IMG/VR virus record: IMGVR_UViG_3300036791_000464 | Coordinates: 1-60,600 of that record | DNA: 60,600 bases | Origin: a virus | Taxonomy: Duplodnaviria > Caudoviricetes | Direction: 5' to 3' (one strand) | In this document: piece after piece, positions 1 to 59,117 of the stretch | How the letters are laid out: every line of letters starts with the position of its first letter | Position numbering within the stretch: the stretch's first letter is position 1 | Notes under the pieces: model-generated | The model's input: only the letters and a program-made list of their open reading frames with translations | What the model was told of the DNA's origin: nothing | Databases searched by the model: none | Made by a program: the position numbers and the translations under genes

Positions 1-127
1 TCCGGGCTGCGGAGTCTCTTCGTCCATTTTGTCCCTCCTCTCATGAGTCGTACCTTCTATGACAAGGTCTACAAAGCTCGATGTAATCATCAGGGTCGTC
101 TAGGTAATCTCCTGAAATGTTCGCAAA
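1..127. repeat. Terminal direct repeat, copy 1 (circular assembly overlap)
   Basis: 1-127 is identical to 60474-60600; 127 is a typical assembler k-mer length. Confidence 0.95.
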
Positions 128-370
128 GTCTGTGCCTGAGAAACCTGAGTTTGTCAAGCGAGGTTTTTCTCCGCATTGTTCGCAAACTCCTGTTCTTTCT
201 TTGATCTTACGAATCCGTTTGTGGACTGCCTGGTAGCTTGGATCATCAGTCCAATGTCCATTTTTCTCGCAGCTATTACTATCACCGATTTTGCGGCGAG
301 TTTCTTCAGTGTGTTTGAATCCCGGTCGCCTAGACACCGAGCACCCACATGTCTGATACATACACTTCAC
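41..370 (-). CDS. NUMOD3-containing HNH-like endonuclease (true start probably near 337)
   Basis: HTEETRRKIG NUMOD3-like motif; CxxC...ELCRPCH zinc/HNH-type C-terminus. Confidence 0.75.
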   Translation of the reverse strand: MKCMYQTCGCSVSRRPGFKHTEETRRKIGDSNSCEKNGHWTDDPSYQAVHKRIRKIKERTGVCEQCGEKPRLTNSGFSGTDFANISGDYLDDPDDYIELCRPCHRRYDS

Positions 371-3300: not shown

Positions 3301-3734
3301 AGCTGAGAGCGGCGCTCTTGGTCGATCTCTCCCGTGTACAACTCGATACCGAAGATCGGTTTGACCCCTGTTTCCTTCGCAGCCTGTTCGAACTTGACAT
3401 GCGACATTACGTTTCCGTGTTCGGTCAGAGCAAGCGCAGATCCATTGAGTTCAGAGATTCGACGGACGTGCGCCTCTGGAAGCTGAAACCCGTCGAGGAA
3501 CGAATACGTCGAATGATGATGGAGGCTGACAAACCTGAGCGGTCTCGTGAGACGAGGATTCCGATGAGTACGCTTGTCCTTCCGAACCATGGCAATGTTA
3601 TCGTCATGGTCGCACTCCTTTCCAAACGCTGGTAGTTTTGCATGATCGGGGGATTCGCCGCGCTCGATCTTCTTGCCGAACGCGGAGAGCTTTGCCTTGC
3701 CTGGACTTTCGCCTCTCTGGATAGGTTCAGCCAT
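330..3734 (-). CDS. dnaE: DNA polymerase III alpha subunit (family C)
   Basis: PHP motif SLHHHSTYSFLDG, GPARGSAAAS, PDIDLDF catalytic motif, YAFNAAHS. Confidence 0.97.
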   Translation of the reverse strand: MAEPIQRGESPGKAKLSAFGKKIERGESPDHAKLPAFGKECDHDDNIAMVRKDKRTHRNPRLTRPLRFVSLHHHSTYSFLDGFQLPEAHVRRISELNGSALALTEHGNVMSHVKFEQAAKETGVKPIFGIELYTGEIDQERRSQLKNHLTILARDQAGYRNILKLVSRSYMEGFYYEPTVSGRMLREHSKGIVVLSGCQGSLLFCSLVGGKGIAPEDASYGRALAVAQRFHRAFGNAYCIEVQAFPELETTRRANPLLARLARETGVPLVATLDCHYTLPTDNELQKVLHSLRSGGKSTPEDLSKSWGYTAELCPPATDRSILNRLVATGLTRQEAINAILMTEELSQDCTVELPKLEMVRYPTRNGKTSTETFRDWLKEGWEYRGCGQLGYRERRRYQERLKYETSIIEEKDFADYFLIVSDAVRFAKDKGIGVGPARGSAAASLVCWLLRITEVNPMLFPHLVFERFIDITRLDLPDIDLDFVSARRGEVVDYLVIKYGRECVNQIGTFGTFKSRLALDDVARVHRIPKYEVEQIKDVLLERSSGDLRASATIEDTIEQFEQAAGVVERYPKIMDATLLEGNVKSFGVHAAGVAISNEPITDITAILERTVQKRSIQVVALDKYDAEYLGVLKIDLLGLSALDALVQMCIMEGKPASFLYEIPIVDEATIEGFKDNDVTGIFQFEGRAMRMVNGSVRPDDFNEVCHVTALARPGPLHNGAVADYVDIKRGEKQPHLRHPALEHITGFTQFQIVYQEQILQIVREIGNFDWTHAAYIRKIISRKLGDQEFNRQWERFWEGARTIHQRTDYPEIDQDLARSIWGDLTTSGSYAFNAAHSVSYGYIAWWTMWFKQHHPGAFYAAMLHRADKKSAGGGGAGGSSNAKATVTSKAKLDGQVIMLRDAIKHDFEILPYDLRESDLTWKREGEMGLRPGFDQIEGVGPKMAEKIVTWRDGVRNWNGVSWSSLISVKGIGPKTITKLVDFATAEDPFGIEKLDNMIASVKADLPRLKLPVPTHTAVEVPWERGDDVEIVWLGVVVHRNLRDIFEVNRARTGEELDPSEVRHPELNEWMLMAGYDGTDLLSIRITRWKYERFKKLLWKIALDEDIVLVRGVKPGWRAAREVYVSDMWVLGV

Positions 3735-3875
3735 TTAGCACCTACACTTCCATATCGCTCGTAGACAACCTTTGCATCGAATAGTGTAACCATCTTCATC
3801 GTAGTTGCCGAGATACGTCGCCCATTTGCCGCATTTGCAGCGAGGCATTACGACAAGAGCAGGATGTTCAGCCAT
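3735..3875 (-). CDS. Small Cys-rich protein
   Basis: AGGAG RBS before the ATG at 3875; CKCGK...CKGC...CRC. Confidence 0.5.
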   Translation of the reverse strand: MAEHPALVVMPRCKCGKWATYLGNYDEDGYTIRCKGCLRAIWKCRC

Positions 3876-4032
3876 CCTTACTCCTAACGTCTCCGTGAAT
3901 GGCGAGCCAGATATCGAGCCACCCATCCACATCGTCTTCTGTTTTCGGTACCTTTGGAGGATCGCCATACTTCTCCACGAGGTACGCTTCAATCGCTTCG
4001 GATAGAAGCACTGTTTTACTAGGATCATCCAC
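3868..4032 (-). CDS. Small hypothetical protein (54 aa, not in the ORF track)
   Basis: GTG-start ORF MDDPSKTVLLSEAIEAYLVEKY... fills the gap and overlaps both neighbours. Confidence 0.45.
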   Translation of the reverse strand: MDDPSKTVLLSEAIEAYLVEKYGDPPKVPKTEDDVDGWLDIWLAIHGDVRSKDG

Positions 4033-12889: not shown

Positions 12890-13117
12890 TTATTCGTTGA
12901 ACCACGTTCCCATCGCCTTGAGTTCGGCGGAGCTTAGCTCTTCAGGCGCGTCTTCAGATGCGTCAACACGCCTTTTCTTACCCTTGTTCTCCTTCTCTTC
13001 CAGTTTCTCACGTGCTTGTTTCGCGTCTACGACGATCTTGCCGACCGCAGCCATCAGGCCGATTCCGGCTCCGAACATAAACGCGAGCACTCCCATTACT
13101 TGGATCAGAGTGTTCAT
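12890..13117 (-). CDS. Small membrane protein
   Basis: N-terminal hydrophobic helix and charged tail. Confidence 0.6.
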   Translation of the reverse strand: MNTLIQVMGVLAFMFGAGIGLMAAVGKIVVDAKQAREKLEEKENKGKKRRVDASEDAPEELSSAELKAMGTWFNE

Positions 13118-14934
13118 TTCGCTACTTTCTTGAGGATCTGGCGTCGCAGATCGAGCACGTTCTTGTTGATGTCGATCTTCTCGTCGTTGACGTCCTTGAT
13201 GTACTGTTCTATCGTGCCTTTGCTCCGATAGACGAGGGCCGTCACTTGATGATTTCTCGTCGTATCGACCGCACGATCAGTTACCTGAGTCTGGTCATCG
13301 GGGTTCCAAGTCTCATCGAGTATGTGAACATCAGTCGCTCGATTCAACGTGATCCCGACACCGGCCGCAGCAGTCACCAAGACCGCTACACGAACCTTAC
13401 CGGCCTGGAAATCAGCCATGATTCGGTTGCGATCCTTCATGTGAACTGCACCGGAGATGATCTCGCACGGGATCCCGTAGTTGTTCAGATGCCGGTAGAT
13501 CATCTCTGCGGTCTCGCGGAACTGGCTGGCGATAATCGCTTGCTCATCGCCATCCGGATCCTCCGGATCAATCCCGCGCTCTTCAAGGTTCTCAAGCAAA
13601 TACGGGATCTTGCCAGACTCTTCGGTAGCCTTGACCTTCATCTCGACATGGCCAGTTTCCTCATCTACATTCAGAACCTCGACCGAGCACATGTGGTTCG
13701 CGAACTGCTTGAGCCGTGTGTACTCAGCTAAGATCGAGGTAGCAGAGAGATGGTATTCATCGATGCGAACCTCAGCCGCAGCAGCGAACGTATCATATTG
13801 CTTCCGCTGTTTCGTCGTCATGTCGCACCAGACATCGATCCACTGCGTCTCAGGTAGTTGCGGCAGGACTTCTGAACGAAGCCGCCGAACCGCATGAGGT
13901 GCTAGAGCCTGGTAGAACGCATCTTCGCGACCGGGGATGATATTGCCGATGCTCTTGTACTGTCCCCAGGTGTTCTCGATTACCAGCCACTGATAAGCCC
14001 AACGCCACTTCGACGTGAACTTCTCAGGTTCTAGCCAATTGAGAGCGCCCCAGAGCTTGATCGGCTTACCACCCATCGGTGTACCGCTCAGAGCGTACTT
14101 CCGTTGAGCCTTGATCGAGCGAGCTACCTTTGGAAACTCATTCTTCGGCTCGGGCAATCCCGTCTTGTGGAACTCGTCGATAGTGAAAGAGTTCCACAAC
14201 TTGATCTTCGGGAAGTTGCCCAGTCTGATCATATGCGCAGTAGTGACGAACCAGAACGGCTTGCCATCCTTGAGACAGCGTTCCACGGTACGTTCCGCTT
14301 CTGCTTTCTCACGTTGCGTCAAGTCGCCTGAGAACGTCACTACTGTGTGATCAGTCCATCGCTCGATCTCCATCCGCCAGACGCTGTCAAGCGTAGACTT
14401 CGGCGCGACGACCAGGTGAGGGCCAATCTCCAAGTCAGACTCGTAGAGTGACCCGATCACCTCAGTCGTCTTGCCTAGTCTCGGCTCCAACAGATTCAGA
14501 CAGCTGGTTGTCGCCATGAACTTCACGTCGGCCCGCTGGTAGGGACGGAACCACTTAGCAAGCTTGGGGAGCTTCTTGTAGAGCTTCATCTCCTTCAGTG
14601 GCGAGTCGTCTGCCACCGCCAGAGTCTTCAACTCTGTCTCCTTCTTCACTTGCCTCCGACCCCACGCCTTGATTGCGTCTCCGAGTTGGAGTCCGTCTCC
14701 GAACTCTTCACGAAGTCGCCTCATGACGATGAGGTCGAGTGGTAGCGTCCAGAGCGGCCCGCCGTTCTGTGCATTGACGAACCTGGCTCCGAGAGGCTTT
14801 AGCCTGTTCATCGCCAGTACATGCTCTTCACTGTACCGGAAATGGACTCCGCAGCGCTCACCGTCTTCTGTGAGTTCCACGAATGCATCCATGATGTTAC
14901 CTGCGACGGTTGGTTGATCGCCGGGCGGTCTCAT
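13114..14934 (-). CDS. SNF2-family helicase
   Basis: RPYQ Q-motif, EPRLGKT, IDEFH, LSGTP, GVGITL, WNP...Q; start uncertain. Confidence 0.9.
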   Translation of the reverse strand: MRPPGDQPTVAGNIMDAFVELTEDGERCGVHFRYSEEHVLAMNRLKPLGARFVNAQNGGPLWTLPLDLIVMRRLREEFGDGLQLGDAIKAWGRRQVKKETELKTLAVADDSPLKEMKLYKKLPKLAKWFRPYQRADVKFMATTSCLNLLEPRLGKTTEVIGSLYESDLEIGPHLVVAPKSTLDSVWRMEIERWTDHTVVTFSGDLTQREKAEAERTVERCLKDGKPFWFVTTAHMIRLGNFPKIKLWNSFTIDEFHKTGLPEPKNEFPKVARSIKAQRKYALSGTPMGGKPIKLWGALNWLEPEKFTSKWRWAYQWLVIENTWGQYKSIGNIIPGREDAFYQALAPHAVRRLRSEVLPQLPETQWIDVWCDMTTKQRKQYDTFAAAAEVRIDEYHLSATSILAEYTRLKQFANHMCSVEVLNVDEETGHVEMKVKATEESGKIPYLLENLEERGIDPEDPDGDEQAIIASQFRETAEMIYRHLNNYGIPCEIISGAVHMKDRNRIMADFQAGKVRVAVLVTAAAGVGITLNRATDVHILDETWNPDDQTQVTDRAVDTTRNHQVTALVYRSKGTIEQYIKDVNDEKIDINKNVLDLRRQILKKVAK

Positions 14935-15214
14935 TACTTTTGCTTCTCTTTCTGCCTCTGTAGATTGCGTAGACCTCACATCCTCGCGAGACGAACTCCC
15001 AGTCATGTTCTGGTTCTGGGATGAGCACCTGGCGACGATGCAAGTTGGACTGGAGCTTATACGCCTGTGCTGGATTCTCACAAGTGTAGATCAGCGCCCA
15101 GTTACCAGGATTGCCAACGAGTGGCATGAGCTGGTTGGCCCATCGCCCCACCAATCCTTGTTTCGGTCTCGGTGGCTCGTTGACGAACTCTACTTTTTGT
15201 TCTGTGTCGTTCAT
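14897..15214 (-). CDS. Hypothetical protein
   Basis: AAGGAGGGTACTA-ATG RBS. Confidence 0.65.
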   Translation of the reverse strand: MNDTEQKVEFVNEPPRPKQGLVGRWANQLMPLVGNPGNWALIYTCENPAQAYKLQSNLHRRQVLIPEPEHDWEFVSRGCEVYAIYRGRKRSKSNETARRSTNRRR

Positions 15215-15241
15215 TAGTACCCTCCTTATCTTGACGGCCAA

Positions 15242-15410
15242 AAGCACGCTCGGAGTTGAACCGAGAATACCCATCGTGCTTGGAAGATTCGGGGGATCCG
15301 GGGAGGGTACCAGTCCACCCGGATCCCCCACGCCGGCAGCGCGTTATCGACTAACGGCGCGCGCCAGCGAGCTTTGTAGGAGCTTGCGTAATGGGATGCA
15401 AGCCTCTATC
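15242..15410 (-). ncRNA. Structured intergenic RNA: hairpins, anti-RBS loop hairpin and tRNA-like minihelix
   Basis: 7-bp stem with a canonical T-arm (15242-15281); 12-bp stem at 15291-15329; further hairpins up to 15410. Confidence 0.55.
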
Positions 15411-15992
15411 CTAGCCGATCTCCTTCCGCGCCGGTACTCGACCAGTGCGGAAGCAATAGGGACAGCTTCGTCCGACAATCACAATCGGTTTGATCTGCTG
15501 CTGCTTTTGAACTCTGAATGGTCTCATCCATTCTCTCTCTGCGACCAAAAACGGACGGTCACCTGTCGTTCCTGGACAGTCTTTGTAGCCGCATCGGACG
15601 ATCAAGAAGCCGGGAAAGTCTTGGCTCCTGGTCGCCTGGTACCGAGGCAGCTTGCTTACGAAGTCGTTCAAGGTACCCTCCTTGGTTTGAAGCCCGGTAT
15701 GGACTCCGACCGCCCAGACGCTACTCTGGACGGCCGCAGTTCATCTGCCGGTACGTCTTGGATCGTTCAGACGGATGTCAGCGGCGGCCAACGTTCTGTA
15801 CCCGCCTGGGTCTGTGTACACCTGAACAAGAGACTTCTGACGACGCAGGATGTAACCGTTCTTGTCGAACGTACCTGCGGGTAGAAGTTGCTTGAAGGAG
15901 ACACATATGAATGGCCCGATCACAAATGGTTCGAGACCTTCCATCTTGACGACAACCCAGATCCGGCGACCAGGGCGCAGCATGTCTTCCAC
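15411..15992 (-). CDS. Two small hypothetical genes (15411-15671, Cys-containing; 15741-15992)
   Basis: ORF track; GGAGGGTACC RBS before the TTG at 15671. Confidence 0.55.
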
Positions 15993-16033
15993 TGGCCCAT
16001 GGTCGCCGGTCTTGGCTGCCTCTACGACCGCCG

Positions 16034-16534
16034 TCAGGAAGGGTTGTTGCCCCTACCTGCCTGGCGCTGAGCGCGCGTGCGTGAACGACGGGGCGTGGCC
16101 GCTGCGGTTGCCCGCTTGCCAGTGGTCGTCTTCGATCCTGCCGGACGACCACGACCGCGCCGGGGCGTCTCCTCCTCATCGCCGTTGTCCTTCTTGCTGC
16201 GGACTCCGGAGATGACCGAGTTGGCTGCCGCCTCCTCACCGCCGAAGAGATCCTTGACGGTGGCGACGGACTCGCCAACGCGAGCCGCGATCAGTTCCCA
16301 GCGGTTGCCATCGACGTTGCGGAGCTTCTTCACGCTCGCCGCCGTTGCCGGCTGCTCGCTGTAGATTCCCGCATCGACCTGGGCACGCGCCCAGGGCATC
16401 GCGCCGATGTTGCCGACGGTGACGCCCAACTCGCGCGCCGCCTCGGACTGACCCATCCCAGACTTGGCCAACCTCACGAGCTTCTCGTGGGTGACCGGCT
16501 GGGTGTTCTCGGTGTTACGCCTGTTGCGAGGCAT
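16034..16534 (-). CDS. Putative DNA-binding regulator (HTH plus AT-hook-like basic tail)
   Basis: GMGQSEAARELGVT HTH-like segment; RRGRGRP; own promoter. Confidence 0.65.
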   Translation of the reverse strand: MPRNRRNTENTQPVTHEKLVRLAKSGMGQSEAARELGVTVGNIGAMPWARAQVDAGIYSEQPATAASVKKLRNVDGNRWELIAARVGESVATVKDLFGGEEAAANSVISGVRSKKDNGDEEETPRRGRGRPAGSKTTTGKRATAAATPRRSRTRAQRQAGRGNNPS

Positions 16535-16575
16535 AATGCTCCCTCCTATTACGGTTGATGGTACCCAGTACGCCG

Positions 16576-16604
16576 ATTATAGCGCATGGGGTGGTACCCG
16601 TCTA
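16576..16604 (-). promoter_or_regulatory. SigA-type promoter
   Basis: TAGACG-17 nt-TATAAT, with GGTACC in the spacer and again downstream. Confidence 0.7.
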
Positions 16605-16685
16605 GTCATGATTACCAGGGACTTTTGACGGTGGAGTCGTAATGACCTCCGTGCCCCCAGCCTTTTACCGCTGGGGACGCGCGGG

Positions 16686-16976
16686 TCACCGCAACCTAAT
16701 GCACTTGAAGTTCGGCTTGATCTTCGCGTTCAAGTAGACGCCGCTCGATTCCGAATACGCGCATCTGACTGCGCGTTGCCGGCTGACACCGACGTAGACG
16801 TAACGAGCGCCGCCTTTGAACTCGATGAACATCAGCGGTTGGCCGCCCTTTTCTGGCCAGCCGATGAATCGAATATTCGAGCTATCAATCATCCGGATGA
16901 CGCAAGGAACTATTCCTTCAGGAGTGGGGATGTCCAGCAGCTGAGTTTTAGGCCATCCATCTTTATTGAGAGGCAT
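16686..16976 (-). CDS. KTSC-domain protein
   Basis: DSSNIRFIGW...IEFKGGARYVYVGV...SSGVYLNAKIK. Confidence 0.75.
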   Translation of the reverse strand: MPLNKDGWPKTQLLDIPTPEGIVPCVIRMIDSSNIRFIGWPEKGGQPLMFIEFKGGARYVYVGVSRQRAVRCAYSESSGVYLNAKIKPNFKCIRLR

Positions 16977-17388
16977 CTCTCTGCTCTCTGTCGAGTTTAT
17001 CGTGACAAGGTTTGCAGACTTCGATCCAGTCAGTCGGATCTTCCCACCTGTACTCAAGAGAGAGATTGTGAAACTCAGTTCCTCGTCTCACTCTAGTTCT
17101 GAGATTGGGCAGACGAACTACTCTCGATGGTGGTGTCTTACCACAGCGTTCACAAGTTCCCGTATATGGCTTCAAATCTCTGAGACGTTTATGTTTCAGA
17201 TCATATCCGGGATCAGGATTCCATCGTGGACTCTTTTCGCCTTTCTTGTTCCACATTCCGTTTCCATCACCCTTGTTCGCTTTGCTAATGGCAGCGCGAG
17301 TTTCTGGCGATTGTTCTTTGCCCTTATGAGCCTCGCTCATTTTGCGACGATGCTCATCAGAGAACTTCTTTCCTTTGGGCCATGGCAT
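16963..17388 (-). CDS. NUMOD3 HNH-like endonuclease
   Basis: Two NUMOD3-like repeats (SDEHRRKMSEAHKG; SPETRAAISKANKG); CERCG...EVCKPCH. Confidence 0.75.
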   Translation of the reverse strand: MPWPKGKKFSDEHRRKMSEAHKGKEQSPETRAAISKANKGDGNGMWNKKGEKSPRWNPDPGYDLKHKRLRDLKPYTGTCERCGKTPPSRVVRLPNLRTRVRRGTEFHNLSLEYRWEDPTDWIEVCKPCHDKLDREQRDASQ

Positions 17389-17930
17389 TACTGATCGCCT
17401 CTGCACACTGGCCCTATTCCTAGTTGGCGAGAAGTCTCGTCAGTCAAAGTCCTGCCGCAGACATAGCAGCGGCCGATCTCGCGCCCGAACCTGGGGCCAG
17501 CATCCGGATCCGCTTTGATCGCGTCCAGGACACGCTTGATCTCCGAGATGTTACCAATCGGGTAACGAGTATCGGATGCCCACACATCGACGAACACCTT
17601 GGAGTGTCCGTTCTTGACGCTGTAGAACATCAGCGTGCCGTCATCCTTCTCGACGGCATAGCGTCCGTCTTCAACGCCAGCGAGCGCGACATTCGTCTTC
17701 TTCTTCCACGGCAACGCCACCAGCGTCTCGATGACAGTGCTGGCGCGCATCTTCGGAATAGTTGCGAAGTCGGCGGTTTGGAGCCAGTTCTGCTGCTCCT
17801 CGGTGAGAGAGTCAAGATCCTTACCTTGAGCAAGAGCATCGAGGTAAGCGACCTGCTTCTCATTAGCCAACGGGCCGGTGGTGGGCCGGAACTGCTCCGG
17901 AACCTCCGACCTTTTGGTCGTTCTAGGCAT
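17388..17930 (-). CDS. DUF6011-like zinc-finger protein
   Basis: C-terminal RCYVCGRTLTDETSRQLGIGPVC. Confidence 0.7.
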   Translation of the reverse strand: MPRTTKRSEVPEQFRPTTGPLANEKQVAYLDALAQGKDLDSLTEEQQNWLQTADFATIPKMRASTVIETLVALPWKKKTNVALAGVEDGRYAVEKDDGTLMFYSVKNGHSKVFVDVWASDTRYPIGNISEIKRVLDAIKADPDAGPRFGREIGRCYVCGRTLTDETSRQLGIGPVCRGDQ

Positions 17931-17946
17931 GGTACCCTCCTTGACT

Positions 17947-20900
17947 GTGCTCGGTTATCCGAACACGAGGCCACCCGTCATTACACGGGTGACTTCCTGC
18001 TCAGTTGACCGGATCGACCTCAAGAATCTCGCGGTCGTCAGACCAATCGACATCCGTACCGTCGAAGTCTTCGAACTCCGCAGCATCTTTGGCGTCGTCT
18101 TCGTCTTCGGCATAGATGTAGATCGTGACTATGCCAGTGACCTGCATCTTGACTTTGTACTCTTGCTCGTCAGGCACGTTAGTCCCTTCCGAAGCCAAGA
18201 GGCAGATCCGCGCCCTCAGCTTCATCGATTGCTCTCTCAGTGTCGCCCCCAAGGAGCCGTTGCTGCTACGCCGACACTACTTGTTCAGCGACTTGCCACT
18301 GCTTCTTACACCCTTGCTCGGATTGACGCTGATGTTCGCTTTGGCGCCAGCCGAGCTTCCGGCCGTCCTGGCTCCCATGTCGATCTTCCGACTTGCGCGA
18401 ACAACCGTTCCGCCGCGAGTTGCTCCTGAGATCGGGAACTCTGCGTACATGAACTCGCGGTTGATCTTGACCTGATCACGCAGAGCGATCTCCAGACCGG
18501 AGCCAACCGACTTCACTGACTCGTTCCTCATAGCGTGCAACCGCTGTCCAACTTCGGCTGCGAATCCTGCCGAGAAGTTGCGCCTGAACGTCTTCCAGTG
18601 ATTGTAGTTCTGCGGGACACCGCGCACCTTGCACTCCTTGCGATAGTACCGCAGCATCGAGTCGCGAGCTTTCGTGCGCTCCATGTCTGTGTTGAACCCA
18701 GCGGCCTGCATCGCCTCGCCGGTCTCATCCCAGCCGATGCCAGCCTCGCGGAACAGCACGAGGTTATCGAACATCGACTTGAGTGGATCGGCTTTCGGAT
18801 GCGTAGACTCGACCAACTGAGTCATCAGCGACGAGAACAGCAGAGTCATGTAGCCGAGGTCAGCTTCGGTTCCAATAACCGGAACCTTACAGCTTTCCCA
18901 TGTTCTACGAGTATGACTGTAGTGCTGCTTGTGGATGACGATGACGCAGTTCGCGTGCCGAGCCACATCTAGGAACAGAGACCAAAGTGCGTCGCTGATC
19001 TCCGGGAATGGCCCGGACTCAAACGCGAAGCTGTAGTCGAAGTCGTGGATGATTGGCGTCCGCCCGTCAATACGACCGGCATCGTGCTGCGCCAACTCCC
19101 AAAGCTCGACATTGTACTTCATCATCAACTCGTCGGCCTTGGCCATGAAGACTGCGCGCTCACCTTCGAACTCGGTGCTCTCAGCCTTGGCCAAGAGTCC
19201 CTGGATCTTGGAGAGCAGGTCGTCTTTCTGGATCGTGCTCATCTGGTACCCTCCTTTTGGGGTAAGACACTATGTACCATACATAATGTCTGGGCCACCC
19301 GGTGGTGTTCCGGGTGACCGAGGCATTACACCTGGCCAAGCTCCCAGATCGTCACAGGATTGTGACAGGCAGGAGCATTGTGATACGACATCAGATCCAT
19401 GCCTTCCCAGATCAGTCCGTAGGCGATGCCGCCGTTGAACTGATTGTTATACTGGACGATCTTCACGCACCGCATCGAGTGCGGATTGCCCGGCTCATCC
19501 CAGCCGTCATCTGCAATAACTTGATCGACGACCTCGCGACTATTGACGGTAGTCATTACGTCCTCTCGTTCAGGATACCATTTTCGATCAGAAATGTCTT
19601 GTAGATCGGGAAGACGTTATTGTATGTCTTCTTCCCAATCTCGACATTGTGTTTCTTCAGGATCACGACAGCCTGCTTCAGCGGTGACAACCGCCAGCGT
19701 GGGCCATCCGGGTGCTCGACTATCATCTTCATCTTGAAGTAGACCTGAAGATAGACGAACGCTCTGATCTCATGAGGCTGGTCGAGGATGAACCCTTCGC
19801 CACTCATGACTCATACTCCTGTAGTTTGACGACGAGTGCATCGTGCTTCTCGGCTAGGTACAGCAGAGCCGAGCGTACATCTTGCAACGCTCCAAGGATG
19901 ATCTCAGCCTCGTCCCAGTTCAGACTTGAGCTAGGACTCTCGGCCATATCCGAGATCGAGCCGATCACGCCATCAAGGTTATTGATGTCGCTTACGACCG
20001 ACGCAGGAATGTTCCGGATGGTGAACTCTTCATCCTCTCCATTCATGTGCTCATCGCTCCGTGCTCGTCGATCCCACCGATGATAGGATTGCCAGTCGTG
20101 TACTTGATCTGTACGGACATATAACCTTCCGGCAGACCAAGACCGCCTCTCTGGACGATGATCTCCTCGACCGAATGACCCTCAGACAGATCGACAAGCT
20201 TACGCGCTTGCGCCATCGTAAGGTGGTCGAGTGCTTGTGGCGTCATTTTGATGACGACCATACGGTACCCTCCTTTTGGTTTAGAGCCTACACCACGCAG
20301 ACTCCGACCGTCTCTCCATGAGAGACGGCCGCAACCTAGTTGGTGTCCTTCTTCCATGCTCGGTCGCTTGCGCGCTTCTGGGAACGCCTGGCGGCTTTCT
20401 CAGCCTTGCGCATAGACGACTTGAGGTTGCCTGAGCCATGCAGGATGAACTTACCGCGCTTCATCGAAGCGGCTCGCATTCAGGGCAGAACTCACGATGG
20501 GCATCGTCGTGCAGCCCTTGCATGTGAGCATCCGCCATGTCTGCGATCTCGTCGTCCATGTTTCTTGCACTTGGGACGATCTCTGTTGAGCCGAAGTGGT
20601 GCTCATAGCTGCCGGCTTGGGCATGAATGAACACACCAGGCTTCCAGCCCATCCGCTCGCACTTTCGCTTCATTGCTGCGACACTGTCATCGAACTGCTC
20701 GACGGTGCCACCGACCATGACGAATCCGACGTACTTGTCGCCGTTTCCCCAAGTGTCTGTGATGCCGAACGTCGAGGCCATCGGCCTCTTGGCGATCCTC
20801 ATCTTCCAGGGTTTCCGAGCTTCGCTGCTGATGCAGGCGACAACCTCGGTATCCGGATTGGGATCGATTTGAACGCGGTTACTCATTGGGTACCCTCCTT

Positions 20901-23900
20901 TCGTACATGTTCGGATCACCCGAACACGAGGCCCCACCCAGTGGATGGGACTTCCTGCTCAGCTGATGACCTTGCTGTTGTTGGAGAGAGCGATATTGAA
21001 GAGCGGAACGAACTTGTACTTTTCCACCGGGCTGGCGACGATCCAGACCATCTTCTTCTTGGTGCTGGTGCCGTCCTTATGGTGGATTTGGCTCATCTTC
21101 TCTTGCTTCTCAAGCTTGAGCTGGACGCCATCGATCTCGATGGTCTTCTTGCCGGCCAACCAGGCTGAGCGGATCAACTCAACTGAAGACTTATCAGTCG
21201 CCATCAGTCAACCTTCTTCGACCAATTGCTGTTGTCGTCGTTCTCGGGCTCATACTTGTGGAGCATCGCTTCGATCTCTGCGACTACTCCCTCATGGAAC
21301 GCGGTCTCATAGACATCGAGCAGATGCGGCTCGCCATCGTCGCCGTAGCGGTCGAGTTCTTCCATGCAGACTTGTTCCCAAGTGGGATCGTCTGCCCATT
21401 CGCCGCTGACTCGCGGCATCGGAAGCATGTCCATGATCTCAGGATCGATGTTCTCCATACCTTCCATGATTCTCTTGAGGAACTCGTACGGATTGTCCGT
21501 ATTCCCATCGACCATCCAGGTTGCGGCGTTTTTGCCGTCCTGCTCACCGCGCTCGGCGATGATCGCGTCGTCTTTGTCCTCGGACGTGTCTGCGATCCTG
21601 CCTGACAACTCTTCGTGATGCTGATGGTACGCAAAGAGGAGATGCTGGTGAAGAATCGAGATGTCCGAGATGCTGGCGAAGTGCAAGAAGTTCTGTACAG
21701 CAACGCCAACTTCCTTCGATGAGACAATAAAGCTGCCGGCATCGTGGTCGATTGCGTGAACAACTCGGCCATCATCCATGACTTCTTCGCTGTAGATTGC
21801 GAAGACCTTCATTGGTACCCTCCTTTGTTCGGCCGTGCTTGGCTTATCCGAGCACGAGGCCCAGCGCGCGATGCTTTGCGTGCTGGACTTCCTACTCAGC
21901 TAGTCCGCGTCGAACTTAGTAATGTAGAGTTGCTTCTTGATTCCGAAGAACTCCATCATCTCTGCCGGAGCGCGCTTGGCGTACAGTTGGCGCTTCGTCC
22001 AGATTGTATAGCCGGTGCCGAAGCCGGACGGCATGAAGTTGTACGGCTGTCCGCTCAGCAACGTCTTGCTCACCTTTGTTCTTGTCTCTGGCGTTACCGA
22101 GAACGGAATGCCCGGAACAGAAGTTGAGACAGCGATGCGCTTCAGTGACTCTGGAATCCGCTCCGTGATGTAGCGGTGGATCGCTTCGTTGGCTTCGTCA
22201 CTTGGACTCACGTACGGCTTCGGTGTGAACTTCAACGGATTGCTGATGTAGAAGCTGTCATCGACGCCGTAGCGGTCGTATGAGCGACGGATCTTGTCCG
22301 GGGCCATGAAGCTAACATGACCATCGGCCAAGAAGTAGTCGTTGCGATCACCGGAGAAGTTGATCTCGATAATCGTCCAAGGAGCTTTCATCTGGGTGAG
22401 GTACAAGCTTTTGAACTTCTTCTTTGTCCAATCGTTGACCTCTTCCCTGACTTCACTTACAAAGCCCTTTGGAACCACGATTTCACGGATCAACGTATCC
22501 GGCTTCGGAACAACCGGCTTGATGTTCTTAGCCGTCATTCCGTCACCTGGTCGGCCGTGACCCAGAGTTGACCTTTGCCGACGCCGAGCGTTGTGTACTG
22601 CCGGTAGCCGCGCCAATGTCGCGCGCAGCCATTCGCCCACGGGCCCATACTCGTTTTGAAGTCGTACGGGCCAGGAACGAACTCGTCATCTTCCATCTGG
22701 CAGAAGTTGCAGTTGGGAATGCGATCGACAAGAATGACCTGATGGGGGATGAGCTTGAGCTTAGTCATGCTAGTCCACCACCCATCCGTCATCGAGAAGA
22801 GCATCGACGTTGTCGTACGTCTTCAGCTTGCCACCACCAGGCAGTTCGCCAAAGATCGTCGAGTTGCTCTGGATGGTCAACTCTGCGTTCTCATCGATCA
22901 TCTGCATCCCAGCCGCTAGCACTGCCGTCTCGATGCCTACGTCTTGCGACTTAGCGCGACGCTTGATCGGGAGCAGCAGATGCGGCCACCTGTATGGATC
23001 GAGGATCATCTCACGATGCTCCTCGCGTGTATGACCTGTCCAATCCTTTGGACTCGTCATTTTGGTACCCTCCTTTTGGTTTTGTACTAGGATCTCCTTT
23101 TGGACTGATGTCCGGCATGGGACAGTGATGTTCTGTCCCTGCCGCGCATCAGTGTGACAAGAAGAACAAGATTGCGTCGATGACCTCGCGCGCTTCACCG
23201 ATGTTGTCGCTGTTGATGATCGCCATCCTGGGATTGCTTTTGCCATCCAAGATCGGCTTGTCCCAGTTGAAGACGTTGTGGTTCCGCTGGAAGTGGAACT
23301 CCATCGTCAGTTGAGATGTGTATGGCGTTGACTCTTGCTCGATGAAGTGGATAACGCCGCAGTTGCTGGCGCTCCATTCCGCGACCAACTCGTAATCCAA
23401 GCTGTTGGCGGATGACTCCAGATCCTCTATGAACTTCTGCTGGAATGTTTTCATTGGGTACCCTCCTTGTTTTCATGCACCATGTACCCAAGCTTATCTC
23501 GGGCACAAGGCCGCTCGCCGTGTTGCTTGTTGGTGAGCGACCTTCTGCTCGCTACGCCTGCTTGGCGGCTTGGAGCATCGCAACACCGAGCGAACCAAGG
23601 TTGCTCGTTGTGCGGATCTTGACCACGATCTTCTTCTTGGTCATTGCGGTACCCTCCTTGGGGTTTGTTCTATGCGTACTCGGTTGAGCACGAGACCGCA
23701 TCCCGTGTTGCTGGTGGGATGCGATTTCCTACTCAGTTGCCTGTTTGTTCCTTTGATTCGCGCAGAATGACGATTCCCTTCTGCCTTGCTGCGTGGCGCT
23801 CGTTGGCGAACTCGTCGTTGATGAACGCCAACTTCTCCCAGACGTTGACGACACTACCCTCTAGTGCCTTGAGGGCATTGGCGACGACGCAAGCGAGGTA

Positions 23901-24396
23901 CAACTTGTTCTCCAACTCGATGGCGATGCCGGCTGCGTCCGCGATGGCGTCGTCCAAAGTCTTGTTCTCTGGCTTGGGGTCGAAGCGCAGCGTCTCCTTG
24001 TTGTAGCCAAGTTGAGCATTCCATTCCTTGGCCACTTCGGGGTAGTCGCCATCCTCTTCGTAGATCCCATCGGACTCGCCGCCCCAATCCATTCCGAGGT
24101 CAGCAGCGACCCACATAGCCGCGACGAGTGGGATGTTCTTGTAGCCGTAGGCCGTTGGGAACCATCCCATCTCTTCGTTGAACCGCTCGGTCTCTTCCTT
24201 GGTTTTGACCTCGCGGCCATCGCCAATGAACTCGACCTTGGACAATGTGTCCAAGCAGCGGTTGACGAAGGACATCGCTTCGCTATTGAAGTCGTATCTC
24301 ATTTCGGTACCCTCCTTTGGGTTTTGCTTTTGTTTCCGTACCGATTGGCACGAGGCCATCGAGCGTAATGCTTTTTGCTCGATGACTTCCTACCAT
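17947..24396 (-). repeat. Repeated intergenic tandem-hairpin element (6 copies)
   Basis: GYAGGAAGTC-hairpin-GGCCTC-GTGY..hairpin at about 17947, 20907, 21835, 23483, 23676 and 24338. Confidence 0.85.
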
Positions 24397-25707
24397 CAGC
24401 GGCGGATTGTGAATCCGATGATCGTCGCGAACACAATCGGGATTGTGGAAACAATCGCGATTGCTGACTGATTGACTGTTGCGCTCGCTGCTGCGTTGAG
24501 CATGATGAGCGCGAGTCCGATGAGCGCGAGTCCGATGAGGACGAGCCCGATGCTTCTCGTTTGGGCGGTCATCGCTTGGCCGTTCTTCTCGCCTTGAGAT
24601 CGGCGTAGAACTTCGCATCGGATTCTGTCTTGATGCGCTTGATCTCCTTGCGCGCTTCCTTGATCTTTCGCAGCGTTTGGCGGTAGTTCGTGATGACTTC
24701 GTTGGCCATGTTCTCATGGAGCCAGCCAAGGCCGTTGCCGTCGTTGGCCTCTTCCTTGGCCTTGATGAACTCCTCGATGCGGTTCTTGATGACCGTCTCG
24801 ATTTGGATCAGATCCAAAGCGTCGAGGACAAGTTCGGTTTCGATGTACTCTGATTGTGCCACGGGTTGGTACCCTCCTTGTGGTTTGGTCGGGGTATCCG
24901 ACCGGCGCGGGATGCGCTACTCGCTCACATCCCCGCCGCTCGAAAGCCGTCCATGTTCCGAACACTTCTTGCCGGTTATCGCCGTTCTCGGACATCTGTT
25001 GCCTCCCTTGATAATCGTTACAAGGTAGGACGTGTTGTCCTTCCGCTTCTTGCGGAATGTGATCTTCTTGCCGTTCGAGATGTGGTCGCATTGGCGAAGC
25101 GGGAAGGTGTTTGGTGATTTTGCCTTCCGCCCAAGTCCGCGCGTCTCAAACTCGGATAGTCCCGAGTTGCGGAAATGGTTTCTTGCCATTTCCTTGTTTC
25201 GACGACGTTGTTCTCTCGTCTTATGATCCATTGCTGTTTCCCTTCCCTTTGGGCGGGCGGGGTTATCCTCGCCTCATCTAGCGTCGTCGCGGTTGGAACG
25301 TTGGACGGCGCTCGATGAGGCGACGGGGTTTGTCTTCCCCGCCGCCCCGCCGTAAGGAGGGGGTACCATTATATAGTTATCAAGCTACGATGGGGATTTG
25401 CGATTGCCCCGTTCTCATTCCTACCGTTGCCCCGGAGAGCTTGCCGATTTCTCTACTCGGTACCGTCCGCCGACGCTAGTTCGGGGGATCGGTCTCTACG
25501 GGCGTGGACGCGACGGGCGAACCATTGAGGATACTCTCCCGGACTCTTGTCTATATCCTTGAGGATTTCTCTATTAGGATCGCCCAAATGCCGCCGTCCC
25601 TCAAGTTGTTGCCTCGCAGCCATACCGGTTACCATCTCCTCGATTCGCTCGTCCGTATCGCGCGCCCGCCGGATCGCTCTCGCGACCCGGCCTCCGCTTT
25701 GTCCCAT
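18001..25707 (-). other. Early-region array of small hypothetical genes (e.g. 19326-19556, 19556-19807, 19804-20046, 20043-20261, 20461-20886, 20959-21204, 21204-21812, 21900-22538, 22535-22768, 22770-23060, 23149-23454, 23733-24302, 24569-24862, 24917-25231, 25453-25707)
   Basis: Co-oriented, tightly packed ORFs, many preceded by AAGGAGGGTACC. Confidence 0.75.
18277..19242 (-). CDS. DUF2786-domain protein
   Basis: N-terminal LLSKIQGLLAKAEST...KADELMMKY. Confidence 0.75.
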   Translation of the reverse strand: MSTIQKDDLLSKIQGLLAKAESTEFEGERAVFMAKADELMMKYNVELWELAQHDAGRIDGRTPIIHDFDYSFAFESGPFPEISDALWSLFLDVARHANCVIVIHKQHYSHTRRTWESCKVPVIGTEADLGYMTLLFSSLMTQLVESTHPKADPLKSMFDNLVLFREAGIGWDETGEAMQAAGFNTDMERTKARDSMLRYYRKECKVRGVPQNYNHWKTFRRNFSAGFAAEVGQRLHAMRNESVKSVGSGLEIALRDQVKINREFMYAEFPISGATRGGTVVRASRKIDMGARTAGSSAGAKANISVNPSKGVRSSGKSLNK

Positions 25708-56932: not shown

Positions 56933-57313
56933 CTAGCTTTGTACCGAGGATTTCCGTTCGAGGGTTTTACTACGCTGGCTCCGGATTCTTCGTTGATTGT
57001 GCTCTTTTCTGTGACAACTGCCGTGCATCGGGCAAAGGTTGATTAGACGATTGTCTTCTCGATCTTCATTGACATGATGAATGTGAAGACTATTTCTTCC
57101 GACTCCGGTATCCCAAATCTGTTGCCCACACTTCTCACAATGCCATGGAGGATCGGGGAAGAATGACATGAATAAAGCTCGTCCGAGATTATCTCCAGTT
57201 GAAGGCCAGAGTCGAGGTTTTCCAACCAACTGACGCATTTCTTCGGTCGGGAATGGATACCCATCCAAAACATCATTTGGTATGTCACCAGGAGCGTAAC
57301 CTCTCTTTCCCAT
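56933..57313 (-). CDS. HNH endonuclease
   Basis: CEKCG...HIHHVNEDREDNRLINL..HGSCH. Confidence 0.85.
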   Translation of the reverse strand: MGKRGYAPGDIPNDVLDGYPFPTEEMRQLVGKPRLWPSTGDNLGRALFMSFFPDPPWHCEKCGQQIWDTGVGRNSLHIHHVNEDREDNRLINLCPMHGSCHRKEHNQRRIRSQRSKTLERKSSVQS

Positions 57314-58782: not shown

Positions 58783-59116
58783 TAGGCTCCCTCCTGTACA
58801 ACTCTTGCATCCTGATCTTCATGTGATGACTAGCATGACACCCTCTGTGCGCAGATCGCAGGTTTTTCGGATCGTCATTCATCTTATCCTCGTCCAGATG
58901 ATGGACTACAACTAGTCTACGAGGGACGAACCGCCCGCAAAACGTACACACAAAGGGTGCCTCATTATGTTCGAAGAAAGCTGTCCTGCTTACACGACCT
59001 TTGTGGCCGGAATCGACACTCTTGATTCCAGTACGCGCATTGTGTCCGTGTATGTACAGAGACAGCGCTGGCTGACCGCATCCACATCTGCATAGATATG
59101 TCCGCCTCTTCAGCAT
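58775..59116 (-). CDS. HNH endonuclease
   Basis: CRCGCG..HGHN; VHHLDEDKMNDDPKNL..HRGCH. Confidence 0.85.
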   Translation of the reverse strand: MLKRRTYLCRCGCGQPALSLYIHGHNARTGIKSVDSGHKGRVSRTAFFEHNEAPFVCTFCGRFVPRRLVVVHHLDEDKMNDDPKNLRSAHRGCHASHHMKIRMQELYRREPSV

Positions 59117-59117
59117 G

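What the first reader, a model, noticed from the sequence alone, without database searches (positions are those of the whole stretch)
15242..15281. Anticodon-less tRNA-like minihelix
Seen (minus strand): AAGCACG-AUGGGUAUU-CUCGG-UUCAACU-CCGAG-CGUGCUU. This is a 7-bp acceptor-like stem and a 5-bp T stem with a canonical UUCRANY loop. A 9-nt GG-containing linker replaces the D and anticodon arms, and no CCA is encoded. Established: acceptor-stem/T-arm minihelices can be RNase P substrates. Inference: it is a processing signal that releases the upstream anti-RBS RNA (mascRNA-like logic), or a tRNA decoy.
Basis: partly seen in the sequence, partly recalled or inferred. Interest (0 to 1): 0.72.

Follow-up and report, generated by a model that had tools for sequence, protein, structure and literature searches.

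The report
Conserved tRNA-like minihelix in phage leader
A 40-base RNA hairpin that copies only the acceptor stem and T-arm of a tRNA sits between two gene blocks of a soil phage and keeps its shape in about two dozen related phages, so it is a real structured RNA, most likely a cutting mark for the host's tRNA-processing enzymes.

Summary
On the minus strand at 15281-15242 lies a 7-bp acceptor-like stem, a 9-nt GG linker and a 5-bp T-stem with a 7-nt T-loop, with no CCA. ARAGORN and Rfam call nothing. It is not chance: 0 of 1000 shuffles contain such a descriptor. A covariance model built only from relatives finds it at 56.1 bits, against 16.4 for the next hit.

Across 24 distinct sequences from related phage contigs, 96.9% of pair cells are paired and 10 of 12 pairs show compensatory changes. 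The other two pairs are the invariant G-C pairs that close the T-loop. UUCRA of the loop is invariant. U follows the discriminator in 24 of 24, and CCA in 0 of 24.

The element is single-copy. It lies between an invariant anti-Shine-Dalgarno hairpin and the next gene's ribosome site, at the early/replication boundary.

Best reading (about 0.5): a phage "t-element", cut by host RNase P and RNase Z to separate the anti-SD RNA from the downstream mRNA. Cleavage is untested because no RNA data were available. The terminator, attP, coding and dead-tRNA readings are rejected or weak. Some relatives lack the element, so it is an accessory.

The parts
15242..15281 (-). tRNA-like minihelix (whole element, 40 nt)
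   Evidence: Sequence and fold. The leave-one-out covariance model scores it at 56.1 bits. Covariation is shown, and RNAalifold predicts the structure independently.
15275..15281 (-). Acceptor-like stem, 5' strand (pairs with 15242-15248)
   Evidence: All 7 pairs show changes on both sides among 24 distinct sequences, and 94.6% of cells are paired.
15266..15274 (-). Linker that replaces the D and anticodon arms. It carries a conserved GG at helix positions 10-11.
   Evidence: GG is invariant in the 18 sequences of standard length. The linker is 0-1 nt in L071 and L098, and an extra arm or arms replace it in L007, L080 and L087.
15249..15265 (-). T-arm: a 5-bp stem (15261-15265 with 15249-15253) and a 7-nt loop (15254-15260)
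   Evidence: The stem is 100% paired. Three pairs covary, and the two G-C pairs that close the loop are invariant in 24 of 24. Loop positions 1-3 and 5 are invariant, and position 4 is always a purine.
15242..15248 (-). Acceptor-like stem, 3' strand, directly continuous with the T-stem as in a tRNA
   Evidence: A one-base bulge between the two stems occurs only in L087 and L098.
15234..15241 (-). Discriminator-like base (15241), U at the next position (15240), and a conserved GGCCGU box (15239-15234)
   Evidence: The base after the helix varies (U 9, C 7, A 5, G 3). The one after it is U in 24 of 24, and CCA follows in 0 of 24. GCCGT is invariant in all nine close relatives, including the two without a minihelix.
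15212..15227 (-). Ribosome site AAGGAGGGTAC (15227-15217) and ATG (15214-15212) of the downstream 105-aa gene
   Evidence: The distance from the helix end to the start codon is 23-32 nt in 24 of 24 sequences.
15291..15329 (-). Anti-Shine-Dalgarno hairpin: a 12-bp perfect stem with a 15-nt loop that holds the complement of the early-gene ribosome-site motif
   Evidence: Arms 15291-15302 and 15318-15329 are 100% complementary (pair I6). This is the only antisense copy of GGAGGGTACC in the window. The loop core is invariant in 9 of 9 relatives and in 17 of 17. The duplex with the motif is -20.7 kcal/mol.
15331..15404 (-). Two further hairpins of the 196-nt intercistronic leader (approximate limits)
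   Evidence: Minimum-free-energy fold of 15200-15420: -95.2 kcal/mol, z -4.37, 0 of 200 shuffles as stable. These are not resolved in the consensus fold.
14897..15214 (-). Downstream gene P0001 (105 aa, no family), followed by the SNF2 helicase (13114-14937)
   Evidence: Homologues lie in the same place in L002-L010.
15411..15671 (-). Upstream 86-aa gene, the last gene that carries the exact extended ribosome-site motif

Best explanation
The element is a structured RNA made as part of the leftward early/middle transcript. It is a minimal tRNA mimic: a 12-bp acceptor/T-arm stack capped by a true T-loop, usually with a GG linker that could form an elbow. It works as a "t-element", an internal punctuation mark read by the host's tRNA-maturation enzymes.

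In this model RNase P cuts at its 5' edge, between 15282 and 15281. RNase Z, or 3' trimming, cuts after the discriminator-like base, at 15241/15240. The cuts separate the upstream structured leader from the downstream mRNA for P0001, the SNF2 helicase and the replication genes. The upstream leader ends in a stable hairpin whose loop is the complement of the ribosome-site motif of 11 early genes. Cutting gives the upstream RNA a protected 3' end, stops the anti-SD loop from acting in cis on the adjacent ribosome site, and may free it to act in trans on early mRNAs.

Shown here: the structure, its selective maintenance, its tRNA-specific sequence features, its single copy and its fixed position. 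Inferred: transcription through it, recognition and cleavage by RNase P and RNase Z, and every consequence of cleavage.
For: (1) The structure is maintained by selection. Seven sequences give 95.2% paired cells, 9 of 12 pairs with compensatory change, and 0 of 500 shuffles reaching the covariation score. Twenty-four distinct sequences give 96.9% paired, 10 of 12 pairs compensatory, 67 doubly changed cells against 16.0 in shuffles, and at most 56.8% paired when partners are slid by 1-3 columns. RNAalifold predicts 6 acceptor and 5 T-stem pairs on an unguided MAFFT alignment of 17 leaders.

(2) What stays constant is what tRNA enzymes read. The stack is 11-13 bp. The two G-C pairs closing the loop and UUCRA of the loop are invariant while the stems vary. 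The T-stem and acceptor 3' strands are contiguous. RNase P measures the T-stem-loop/acceptor stack from the elbow (PMC4919913, passages read).

(3) The flanks suit the two enzymes. The base before the helix is U in 11 of 24 (A 6, C 5, G 2). The first helix base is G in 16 of 24. CCA follows the discriminator in 0 of 24, and U follows it in 24 of 24. RNase Z cleaves after the discriminator when CCA is not encoded (PMC10424219, passage read).

(4) The position is right for punctuation. There is one copy per genome: the window and 4 of 5 related records with R2. The fifth record holds the long variant, which R1 found at 37.3 bits. The element always lies between the anti-SD hairpin and the next ribosome site, on the coding strand, 23-32 nt before the start codon.

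(5) There is a precedent. Plant mitochondrial t-elements were found with the same GGTTCRANYCC motif, and their ends coincide with mRNA 5' and 3' ends made by RNase Z and RNase P (PMC1920247, abstract and passages read). MALAT1/mascRNA is another case (PMC4919922, passage read).

(6) G-U pairs occur in about 10 of 286 cells. They and the orientation of the T-loop fit an RNA read in the sense of the genes.
Against: There is no RNA evidence of any kind, so neither transcription through the site nor any cleavage is shown.

L008, L009 and L033 keep the anti-SD hairpin and the ribosome site with no minihelix. L031 and L032 carry an unrelated hairpin in the slot. The module therefore works without the minihelix.

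In L005 and L115 the anti-SD hairpin ends 153 and 163 nt upstream of the minihelix. The tight link is to the downstream leader, not to the hairpin.

The invariant U after the discriminator is part of a GGCCGU box that is also present in relatives without the minihelix. It may have nothing to do with RNase Z.

The 3' RCCA that helps some bacterial RNase P RNAs is absent. Two variants (L071, L098) have no GG linker, so an elbow is not obligatory.

The host is unknown, so its RNase P and RNase Z repertoire is unknown (one search was ambiguous).

The metagenome sample was collected with a pattern that required the downstream box and ribosome site. It therefore cannot show whether the element occurs in other contexts.
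Confidence: 0.5

Rival explanations
1. It is an uncleaved structural element of the 5' leader: a rigid insulator or spacer, an mRNA 5' stabiliser, or a ribosome standby structure. It would keep the anti-SD loop away from the adjacent ribosome site or protect the downstream mRNA, without any tRNA enzyme.
For: The distance to the start codon is fixed at 23-32 nt in 24 of 24. The element is tied to the downstream leader even where the anti-SD hairpin ends 153-163 nt upstream. L031 and L032 have an unrelated hairpin in the same slot. L098 is a plain 13-bp hairpin.
Against: A generic hairpin would not need an invariant UUCRA loop, two invariant closing G-C pairs, a stack close to 12 bp, or a GG linker, all kept while the stems change freely.
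Confidence: 0.2
2. It is a tRNA-end decoy or sponge. After release, and perhaps after CCA addition, the minihelix would bind a protein that recognises the acceptor/T-arm half of tRNAs. That protein could be a host defence toxin acting on tRNA 3' ends, or a tRNA-binding enzyme.
For: The element has tRNA-specific features. The phage encodes no tRNA of its own and no recognisable RNA-repair or nucleotidyl-transfer enzyme. This is only compatibility, not support.
Against: There is one copy inside an mRNA leader and no sign of high expression. Close relatives lack it. The acceptor sequence and discriminator vary, so no single tRNA identity is copied. No partner was identified.
Confidence: 0.1
3. 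It is the 3'-terminal cap of the upstream non-coding RNA. Only the 3' side would be cut, and the minihelix would stay attached to the anti-SD RNA as a tRNA-like end that blocks 3' exonucleases.
For: The conserved U and box follow the discriminator. The spacer between the anti-SD hairpin and the helix is a short pyrimidine-rich stretch in most members.
Against: In L005 and L115 the hairpin ends 153-163 nt upstream of the helix. The anti-SD hairpin is itself a 12-bp G+C-rich end structure. RNase P would be expected to cut a minihelix with a free 5' leader.
Confidence: 0.08
4. It is the decaying remnant of a tRNA gene, or a tRNA fragment left by recombination or an attP site, with no present function.
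For: tRNA gene fragments are common in prokaryotic genomes (PMC9897764, seen only in the search listing and abstract start). Another phage contig (L065) has a tRNA-like gene that lacks the anticodon loop, next to a true tRNA. The L008/L009 junction looks like a clean deletion of the element.
Against: Ten of 12 pairs carry compensatory changes, and the loop is invariant while the linker and flanks diverge. The 5' acceptor strand is present, whereas an attP core carries only a 3' part. No integrase was found among the 59 ORFs scanned against PHROGs or the 44 scanned against Pfam. The record has direct terminal repeats. No tRNA gene lies at the equivalent position: 0 tRNA genes in L002-L010, and in 40 more distant loci only two tRNAs, both elsewhere.
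Confidence: 0.05
5. It is an intrinsic transcription terminator, or a DNA-level hairpin such as an origin or a protein-binding site.
For: The consensus scan lists the inner stem-loop with its tail as terminator-like. The window copy is followed by four U.
Against: The U-run is not conserved. The tails in relatives read for example CCUGG, AUGCC and CUCGCC. The scan found 5 such sites against 2.5 expected in 3 kb. G-U pairs and the strand-specific T-loop argue for RNA on the sense strand.
Confidence: 0.03

Closest known systems
Plant mitochondrial t-elements (tRNA-like processing signals in mRNA precursors)
   Same: They are non-tRNA elements with an acceptor-like stem and a T-arm carrying GGTTCRANYCC. 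They are embedded in longer transcripts next to coding regions. Their borders coincide with mRNA 3' ends (RNase P) and 5' ends (RNase Z) (PMC1920247, passages read).
   Different: The plant elements are about 70-nt non-canonical cloverleaves in an organelle, and their ends have been mapped by experiment. This one is a 32-43 nt two-stem minihelix (65-77 nt in three variants) in a bacteriophage, with no RNA data. There is no sequence homology.
MALAT1 / MEN-beta tRNA-like 3' elements (mascRNA)
   Same: A tRNA-like structure placed directly after a functional upstream RNA. RNase P makes that RNA's 3' end and RNase Z releases the small tRNA-like RNA (PMC4919922, passage read).
   Different: Those are eukaryotic nuclear elements with a full cloverleaf-like fold. 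No Rfam family matched here. Here the downstream part is a translated mRNA.
Acceptor-stem/T-arm minihelix model substrates of RNase P, RNase Z and CCA-adding enzyme
   Same: The same architecture, a roughly 12-bp coaxial stack capped by the T-loop, which is the part of tRNA those enzymes measure (PMC4919913, passages read). That such minihelices are cleaved is recalled knowledge; I read no primary paper on it.
   Different: The model substrates are laboratory constructs and usually carry 3' RCCA. This is a natural, evolutionarily maintained element without CCA (0 of 24), usually with a GG linker.
C4 antisense RNA of phages P1 and P7
   Same: A phage RNA that is a substrate for RNase P (title of Hartmann et al. 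1995, seen only in the reference list of PMC4919922). From recall, it masks a ribosome site downstream in its own operon. That matches the logic of the anti-SD hairpin plus processing signal.
   Different: From recall, RNase P makes the 5' end of C4 and the antisense RNA itself is the substrate. Here the tRNA-like part is a separate module 3' of the antisense hairpin. No Rfam match.
Start-associated sequences (SAS/ESAS) of Cluster K mycobacteriophages (relevant to the neighbouring motif, not to the minihelix itself)
   Same: A 13-bp motif containing the ribosome site lies 3-7 bp before the start codons of many non-structural genes. It extends beyond 16S pairing, has a single copy in the opposite orientation, and its role is unknown (PMC3203893, passages read; PMC11373665, passages read). 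The window has the same layout: 11 sense copies and 1 antisense copy.
   Different: The motif sequence and the phage group are different. No tRNA-like element lies beside the reverse copy in Adephagia.
Canonical tRNA, tmRNA tRNA-like domain and bacterial Y-RNA tRNA-like domain
   Same: The T-arm consensus and the acceptor-like stem.
   Different: There is no D-arm, anticodon arm, tag reading frame or Ro-binding helix. ARAGORN and Rfam give nothing.

Membership tests
Canonical tRNA gene | Cloverleaf with a D-arm and an anticodon arm that carries an anticodon | tested here: not met
   ARAGORN finds 0 genes in the window and 0 in L002-L010. There is no tRNA match at E up to 10 in 14900-15700. Only 9 nt lie between the acceptor and T stems.
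Canonical tRNA gene | T-arm consensus (G-C closing pairs, UUCRA loop) contiguous with a 7-bp acceptor stem | tested here: met
tmRNA | tRNA-like domain joined to a tag reading frame and pseudoknots | tested here: not met
   ARAGORN also searches for tmRNA and found none. Rfam found none.
t-element / tRNA-like RNA processing signal | Acceptor-like stem plus a T-arm with GGTTCRANYCC, and not a functional tRNA | tested here: met
   The motif definition is from PMC1920247.
t-element / tRNA-like RNA processing signal | Lies inside a longer transcript, between functional RNA units | tested here: inconclusive
   The element is intercistronic and on the coding strand. No promoter-like site was found in 15200-15420, and the only terminator-like hit is the element itself. 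No RNA data were available.
t-element / tRNA-like RNA processing signal | RNA termini at the element's borders, or cleavage by RNase P or RNase Z | not testable with these tools
   No RNA holder was listed. Testing needs end mapping or in vitro cleavage.
RNase P minihelix substrate | About 12 bp of acceptor/T-stem stack capped by a T-loop | tested here: met
   The stack is 11-13 bp in 24 of 24.
RNase P minihelix substrate | 3' RCCA after the stem | tested here: not met
   CCA follows the discriminator in 0 of 24. This is not obligatory for the holoenzyme (recalled).
Intrinsic terminator | G+C-rich hairpin directly followed by a conserved U-tract | tested here: not met
   The U-run is present only in the window copy. 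Relatives have mixed tails.
attP / tRNA 3' fragment of an integrating phage | An integrase gene, and a copy of only the 3' part of a host tRNA | tested here: not met
   No integrase was found among the ORFs scanned. The 5' acceptor strand is present and covaries. The genome has direct terminal repeats.
Protein-coding sequence (N-terminal extension of P0001 from the GTG at 15331) | Reading frame kept open in relatives, with indels in multiples of three | tested here: not met
   An in-frame stop lies inside or after the helix in 10 of 24. Element lengths are 32, 33, 39-43, 65, 69 and 77 nt.

The most novel reading that the evidence does not exclude
The minihelix is the processing handle of a phage-wide translational timer. 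The early operon ends in a hairpin whose loop is the exact complement of a private, extended ribosome-site motif carried by about a dozen early genes. Host RNase P, by cutting at the tRNA-like minihelix, would release this anti-SD RNA. The released RNA would then shut off early-gene translation in trans, and the downstream replication mRNA would be freed from it in cis. The same one-antisense-copy layout exists in Cluster K mycobacteriophages, whose start-associated sequences have had no known mechanism since 2011. In Adephagia the reverse copy sits in the loop of a 19-bp hairpin. If the model is right, it would explain that class of motif as well.
Probability: 0.22. Interest if true: 0.85.

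Novelty: new variant of a known kind. Interest (0 to 1): 0.62.

Why it matters
tRNA-like punctuation of mRNAs is established in mitochondria and in a few eukaryotic long non-coding RNAs. In bacteria and phages the known RNase P targets outside tRNA are scattered individual cases. Four searches of the held paper library turned up no conserved, covarying acceptor/T-arm minihelix in a phage mRNA leader.

If the element is cut as proposed, it is the smallest natural tRNA mimic used as a processing signal. It would show a phage borrowing host tRNA maturation to structure its own gene expression. It would also give a compact, portable RNA-cleavage tag.

Its neighbour makes a long-standing puzzle testable. 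That neighbour is a single antisense copy of a ribosome-site motif shared by many early genes. The puzzle is the function of start-associated sequences in actinophages.

Tried and rejected
ARAGORN on the window and on 51 related loci found no tRNA at this position.

Rfam at gathering score over the window and at E up to 10 around the site gave only chance-level miRNA and lncRNA hits. Rfam at E up to 1 on the three long variants gave no tRNA-type hit.

blastn of 14700-16100 against 50,697 phage records found no match.

Relatives sought through the 105-aa downstream protein: none confirmed. An exact 24-nt stretch searched in IMG/VR gave 0 hits.

Sequencing runs: no RNA holder was listed.

Host inference through the major capsid protein gave three hits: an unnamed MAG (84%), a Micromonospora contig (55%) and a Myxococcaceae MAG (53%). 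This is too ambiguous to name a host.

Of the 7 IMG/VR pattern hits, L062 and L065 are unrelated phages. None of 53 window proteins matches them by tblastn. A tblastx attempt printed nothing.

Of the 64 metagenome pattern hits, 27 matched model R1 at E up to 0.1. Three of those (two in L091, one in L099) look like ordinary tRNAs, and I dropped them before the covariation count. L010 was also left out because it is identical to L006.

The terminator, attP, coding-extension and DNA-hairpin readings were rejected, as set out under the rival explanations and the membership test.

A possible pairing of the linker with the GGCCGU box, and of that box with the segment before the anti-SD hairpin, was considered. 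It cannot be tested because the box never varies.

Supplementary files of the papers were not consulted. Figures S3 and S4 of PMC3203893 may show the reverse SAS sites I located myself.

Full report
WHAT THE WINDOW IS

The 60,600-base window is a complete virus record with direct terminal repeats. PHROGs and Pfam scans show a contractile-tailed phage. The structural and lysis genes lie on the plus strand between about 27 and 56 kb. Small early genes lie on the minus strand from about 26.5 kb down to 15.4 kb. A replication block follows on the minus strand from 15.2 kb down to 0.3 kb. It holds the SNF2 helicase at 13114-14937, an exonuclease, a Sak4-like protein, a primase/helicase and a DNA polymerase. 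None of the ORFs scanned matched an integrase, an RNA polymerase, an RNA ligase or a nucleotidyltransferase. ARAGORN finds no tRNA.

THE OBSERVATION

There is a 7-bp stem and a 9-nt linker with GG. A 5-bp stem then closes a 7-nt loop with the T-loop consensus, and its 3' strand runs without a break into the 3' strand of the outer stem, as in a tRNA. No CCA follows.

The lowest-energy fold is that structure, at -13.6 kcal/mol and z -2.21. Neither the energy nor the 11-nt T-arm motif (0.66 expected per window) is significant alone. The combined descriptor is significant: it occurs once in the window and in 0 of 1000 shuffles. In about 1.03 Mb of fetched loci it hits only members of this family, plus one place inside what looks like an ordinary tRNA.

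The tRNA finders and Rfam report nothing here, as expected for an element without D and anticodon arms.

CONSERVATION

The SNF2 protein retrieved 60 related IMG/VR loci. The nine closest, at 67-84% identity, also encode the 105-aa protein that follows the element. In seven of the nine loci the same spot holds a minihelix with different stem sequences. Two of these, L006 and L010, are identical there. In L008 and L009 the minihelix is absent.

Seven aligned sequences give 95.2% paired cells and compensatory change at 9 of 12 pairs.

I then scanned the metagenome collection with a pattern made of the T-arm motif, the downstream GCCGT box and the ribosome site. That gave 64 loci. Model R1 matched 27 places at E up to 0.1. 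I dropped three that look like ordinary tRNAs (two in L091, one in L099).

Together with the window and the IMG/VR loci, this gave 31 matches and 24 distinct sequences. On these:
- 96.9% of 286 cells are paired.
- 10 of 12 pairs show changes on both sides.
- The remaining two pairs are the invariant G-C pairs next to the loop.
- No shuffle of 500 reaches the covariation score, and sliding the partners drops pairing to 31-57%.

That alignment was fitted to the model, which favours the structure. However, RNAalifold predicts the same acceptor pairs (6) and T-stem pairs (5) on an unguided MAFFT alignment of 17 whole leaders. A model built from 18 relatives without the window finds the window copy at 56.1 bits, against 16.4 bits for the next hit.

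The element is single-copy in the window and in four of five related records searched whole with R2. The fifth record holds the long variant, found by R1.

WHAT VARIES AND WHAT DOES NOT

Constant features:
- The coaxial stack of 11-13 bp.
- The two closing G-C pairs.
- Loop positions UUCRA.
- Direct continuity of the two 3' strands, with a one-base bulge only in L087 and L098.

The linker begins with a purine, a pyrimidine and GG in the 18 sequences of standard length. The same YGG follows the acceptor stem in the three long variants. In L007 (69 nt), L080 (65 nt) and L087 (77 nt) an extra arm or arms take the place of the rest of the linker. None of these scores as a tRNA. Two short variants, L071 (32 nt) and L098 (33 nt), have no linker, and L098 is a plain 13-bp hairpin with a T-loop.

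The base before the helix is U in 11 of 24. The first helix base is G in 16 of 24. The discriminator-like base is free. The next base is U in 24 of 24, and CCA never follows.

The free acceptor sequence and free discriminator argue against mimicry of one tRNA identity.

READINGS EXCLUDED

It is not coding. The window's open frame from the GTG at 15331 is an accident. In 10 of 24 relatives an in-frame stop lies in or after the helix, and the lengths differ by single bases.

It is not a terminator. The U-run is peculiar to the window copy.

It is not an attP fragment. There is no integrase, the genome has direct terminal repeats, and the 5' strand is present and covaries.

It is not a neutral tRNA remnant, because the pairs are maintained by compensatory change.

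It is probably not a DNA-level hairpin. About 10 cells are G-U pairs, which would be A-C on the other strand, and the T-loop is strand-specific.

CONTEXT

The element lies in a 196-nt structured leader (z -4.37) between an 86-aa gene and the 105-aa gene P0001. About 10 nt upstream of the element, a perfect 12-bp hairpin at 15291-15329 ends.

The loop of that hairpin carries the only antisense copy in the genome of the 10-mer GGAGGGTACC. The sense form occurs 11 times on the minus strand between 15672 and 24877, each time as the ribosome site plus spacer of an early gene. It occurs once more, with one mismatch, before P0001.

The predicted loop-motif duplex is -20.7 kcal/mol. A generic ribosome-site control gives -11.0.

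The loop core is invariant in all nine close relatives and in 17 of 17 aligned leaders. In five related records searched whole, the 10-mer occurs exactly once in the antisense sense and 2 to 15 times in the sense orientation. The antisense copy lies downstream, in the direction of transcription, of the block of sense copies.

This layout also holds in L008 and L009, which have no minihelix. It holds in the more distant L031-L033 as well, where the slot is empty or holds an unrelated hairpin. The minihelix is therefore an accessory of a wider module. It is always placed between the anti-SD hairpin and the next ribosome site, 23-32 nt before the start codon. In L005 and L115, where the anti-SD hairpin ends 153 and 163 nt upstream, the minihelix still sits in that position before the start codon.

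The L008/L009 junction keeps the outermost bases of the helix, which suggests loss by deletion.

MECHANISM

The conserved features are those that tRNA-maturation enzymes use. RNase P clamps the elbow and measures along the T-stem-loop/acceptor stack (PMC4919913). RNase Z cuts after the discriminator where CCA is not encoded (PMC10424219).

The nearest precedent is the plant mitochondrial t-element. It was identified with the very same 11-nt motif, and its borders coincide with mRNA ends attributed to RNase P and RNase Z (PMC1920247). MALAT1/mascRNA follows the same logic (PMC4919922).

My preferred reading is therefore that the minihelix is a phage t-element. It would divide the leftward transcript at the early/replication boundary. 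The early RNA would end in the anti-SD hairpin, and the downstream mRNA would begin either with the helix or, after a second cut, with the short GGCCGU leader.

I put this at about 0.5, because nothing about transcription or cleavage is shown. Uncleaved structural roles (0.2), a decoy (0.1) and a 3' cap of the upstream RNA (0.08) remain open.

COMPARISON AND NOVELTY

The element fails membership of tRNA, tmRNA and every Rfam family. It meets the structural definition of a t-element or minihelix substrate. The functional criterion could not be tested.

Four literature searches found no description of such an element in a phage or bacterial mRNA leader. Absence from that library is not proof of absence from print. 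I rate it a new variant of a known kind.

RELATED LEAD

The early-gene motif resembles the start-associated sequences of Cluster K mycobacteriophages. Their role was still described as unknown in 2024 and as needing experimental verification in 2025. [quoted passage not shown]

In Adephagia I located that site in the non-coding gap after gene 92. It folds into the 10-nt loop of a 19-bp hairpin. This is the same presentation as in the window. No tRNA-like element lies beside it there.

Noticed in passing
window 15672-24877, minus strand (12-mer AAGGAGGGTACC before start codons); also 15217-15227: Eleven early genes share an identical ribosome site plus spacer. Sixteen copies match the 11-mer with at most one mismatch, against 0.58 expected. 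From recall, the GTACC extension does not pair with a canonical 16S tail. The layout of many sense copies and one antisense copy matches the start-associated sequences of Cluster K mycobacteriophages.
   Followed up: partly
window 15291-15329, minus strand: A perfect 12-bp hairpin whose 15-nt loop holds the only antisense copy of the early-gene ribosome-site motif. The loop is invariant in all relatives examined. In five related genomes it lies downstream of the block of sense copies.
   Followed up: partly
window, minus strand, upstream of the ribosome sites at 24315, 23657, 23466, 21823, 20898 and 17940: At least six copies of a ~65-nt intergenic element: a conserved CTGAGYAGGAAGTC box, a variable hairpin, then GGCCTCGTGYTCGG and a small tetraloop hairpin. 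Two mutually exclusive folds are possible. It may be an ESAS-like promoter or regulatory cassette. There is no Rfam match.
   Followed up: partly
L065 265-327 (unrelated phage contig): A tRNA-like gene scores 51.7 bits to the Rfam tRNA model with acceptor, D and T arms intact but the anticodon loop missing. It lies 70 nt upstream of a true tRNA-Met and just after a hairpin made of the same 10-mer and its complement. None of 53 window proteins matches this contig.
   Followed up: partly
L136 36662-36716 (Mycobacterium phage Adephagia, record about 58661-58715): The single reverse-oriented start-associated sequence of Adephagia lies in the 10-nt loop of a 19-bp hairpin, in the non-coding gap between genes 92 and 93. 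The papers read do not mention this hairpin.
   Followed up: partly
L005 about 3495-3646 and L115 (the equivalent place): About 150-160 nt lie between the end of the anti-SD motif and the minihelix, against 18-35 nt in the other members, so roughly 130-140 nt of extra sequence is present. It is partly conserved between the two contigs, and its content was not analysed.
   Followed up: no
L031/L032 about 2880-2910 and 3860-3890; L033: In more distant relatives the slot between the anti-SD hairpin and the ribosome site holds an unrelated 7-bp hairpin (L031, L032) or nothing (L033).
   Followed up: no
window 15234-15239, minus strand, and the same place in relatives: A GGCCGU or GCCGU box between the minihelix and the ribosome site is invariant. 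It is also present in relatives without the minihelix. Its role is unknown.
   Followed up: no
window 41-370, 16963-17406, 56933-57313, 58775-59164, 59604-59939 (all minus strand): Five small ORFs with NUMOD3 or HNH homing-endonuclease signatures are scattered through the genome.
   Followed up: no
window 14897-15331, minus strand: The 144-aa ORF that starts at GTG 15331 and runs through the hairpin and the minihelix is an artefact. The real start is the ATG at 15214, behind the ribosome site. The frame is closed in 10 of 24 relatives.
   Followed up: yes
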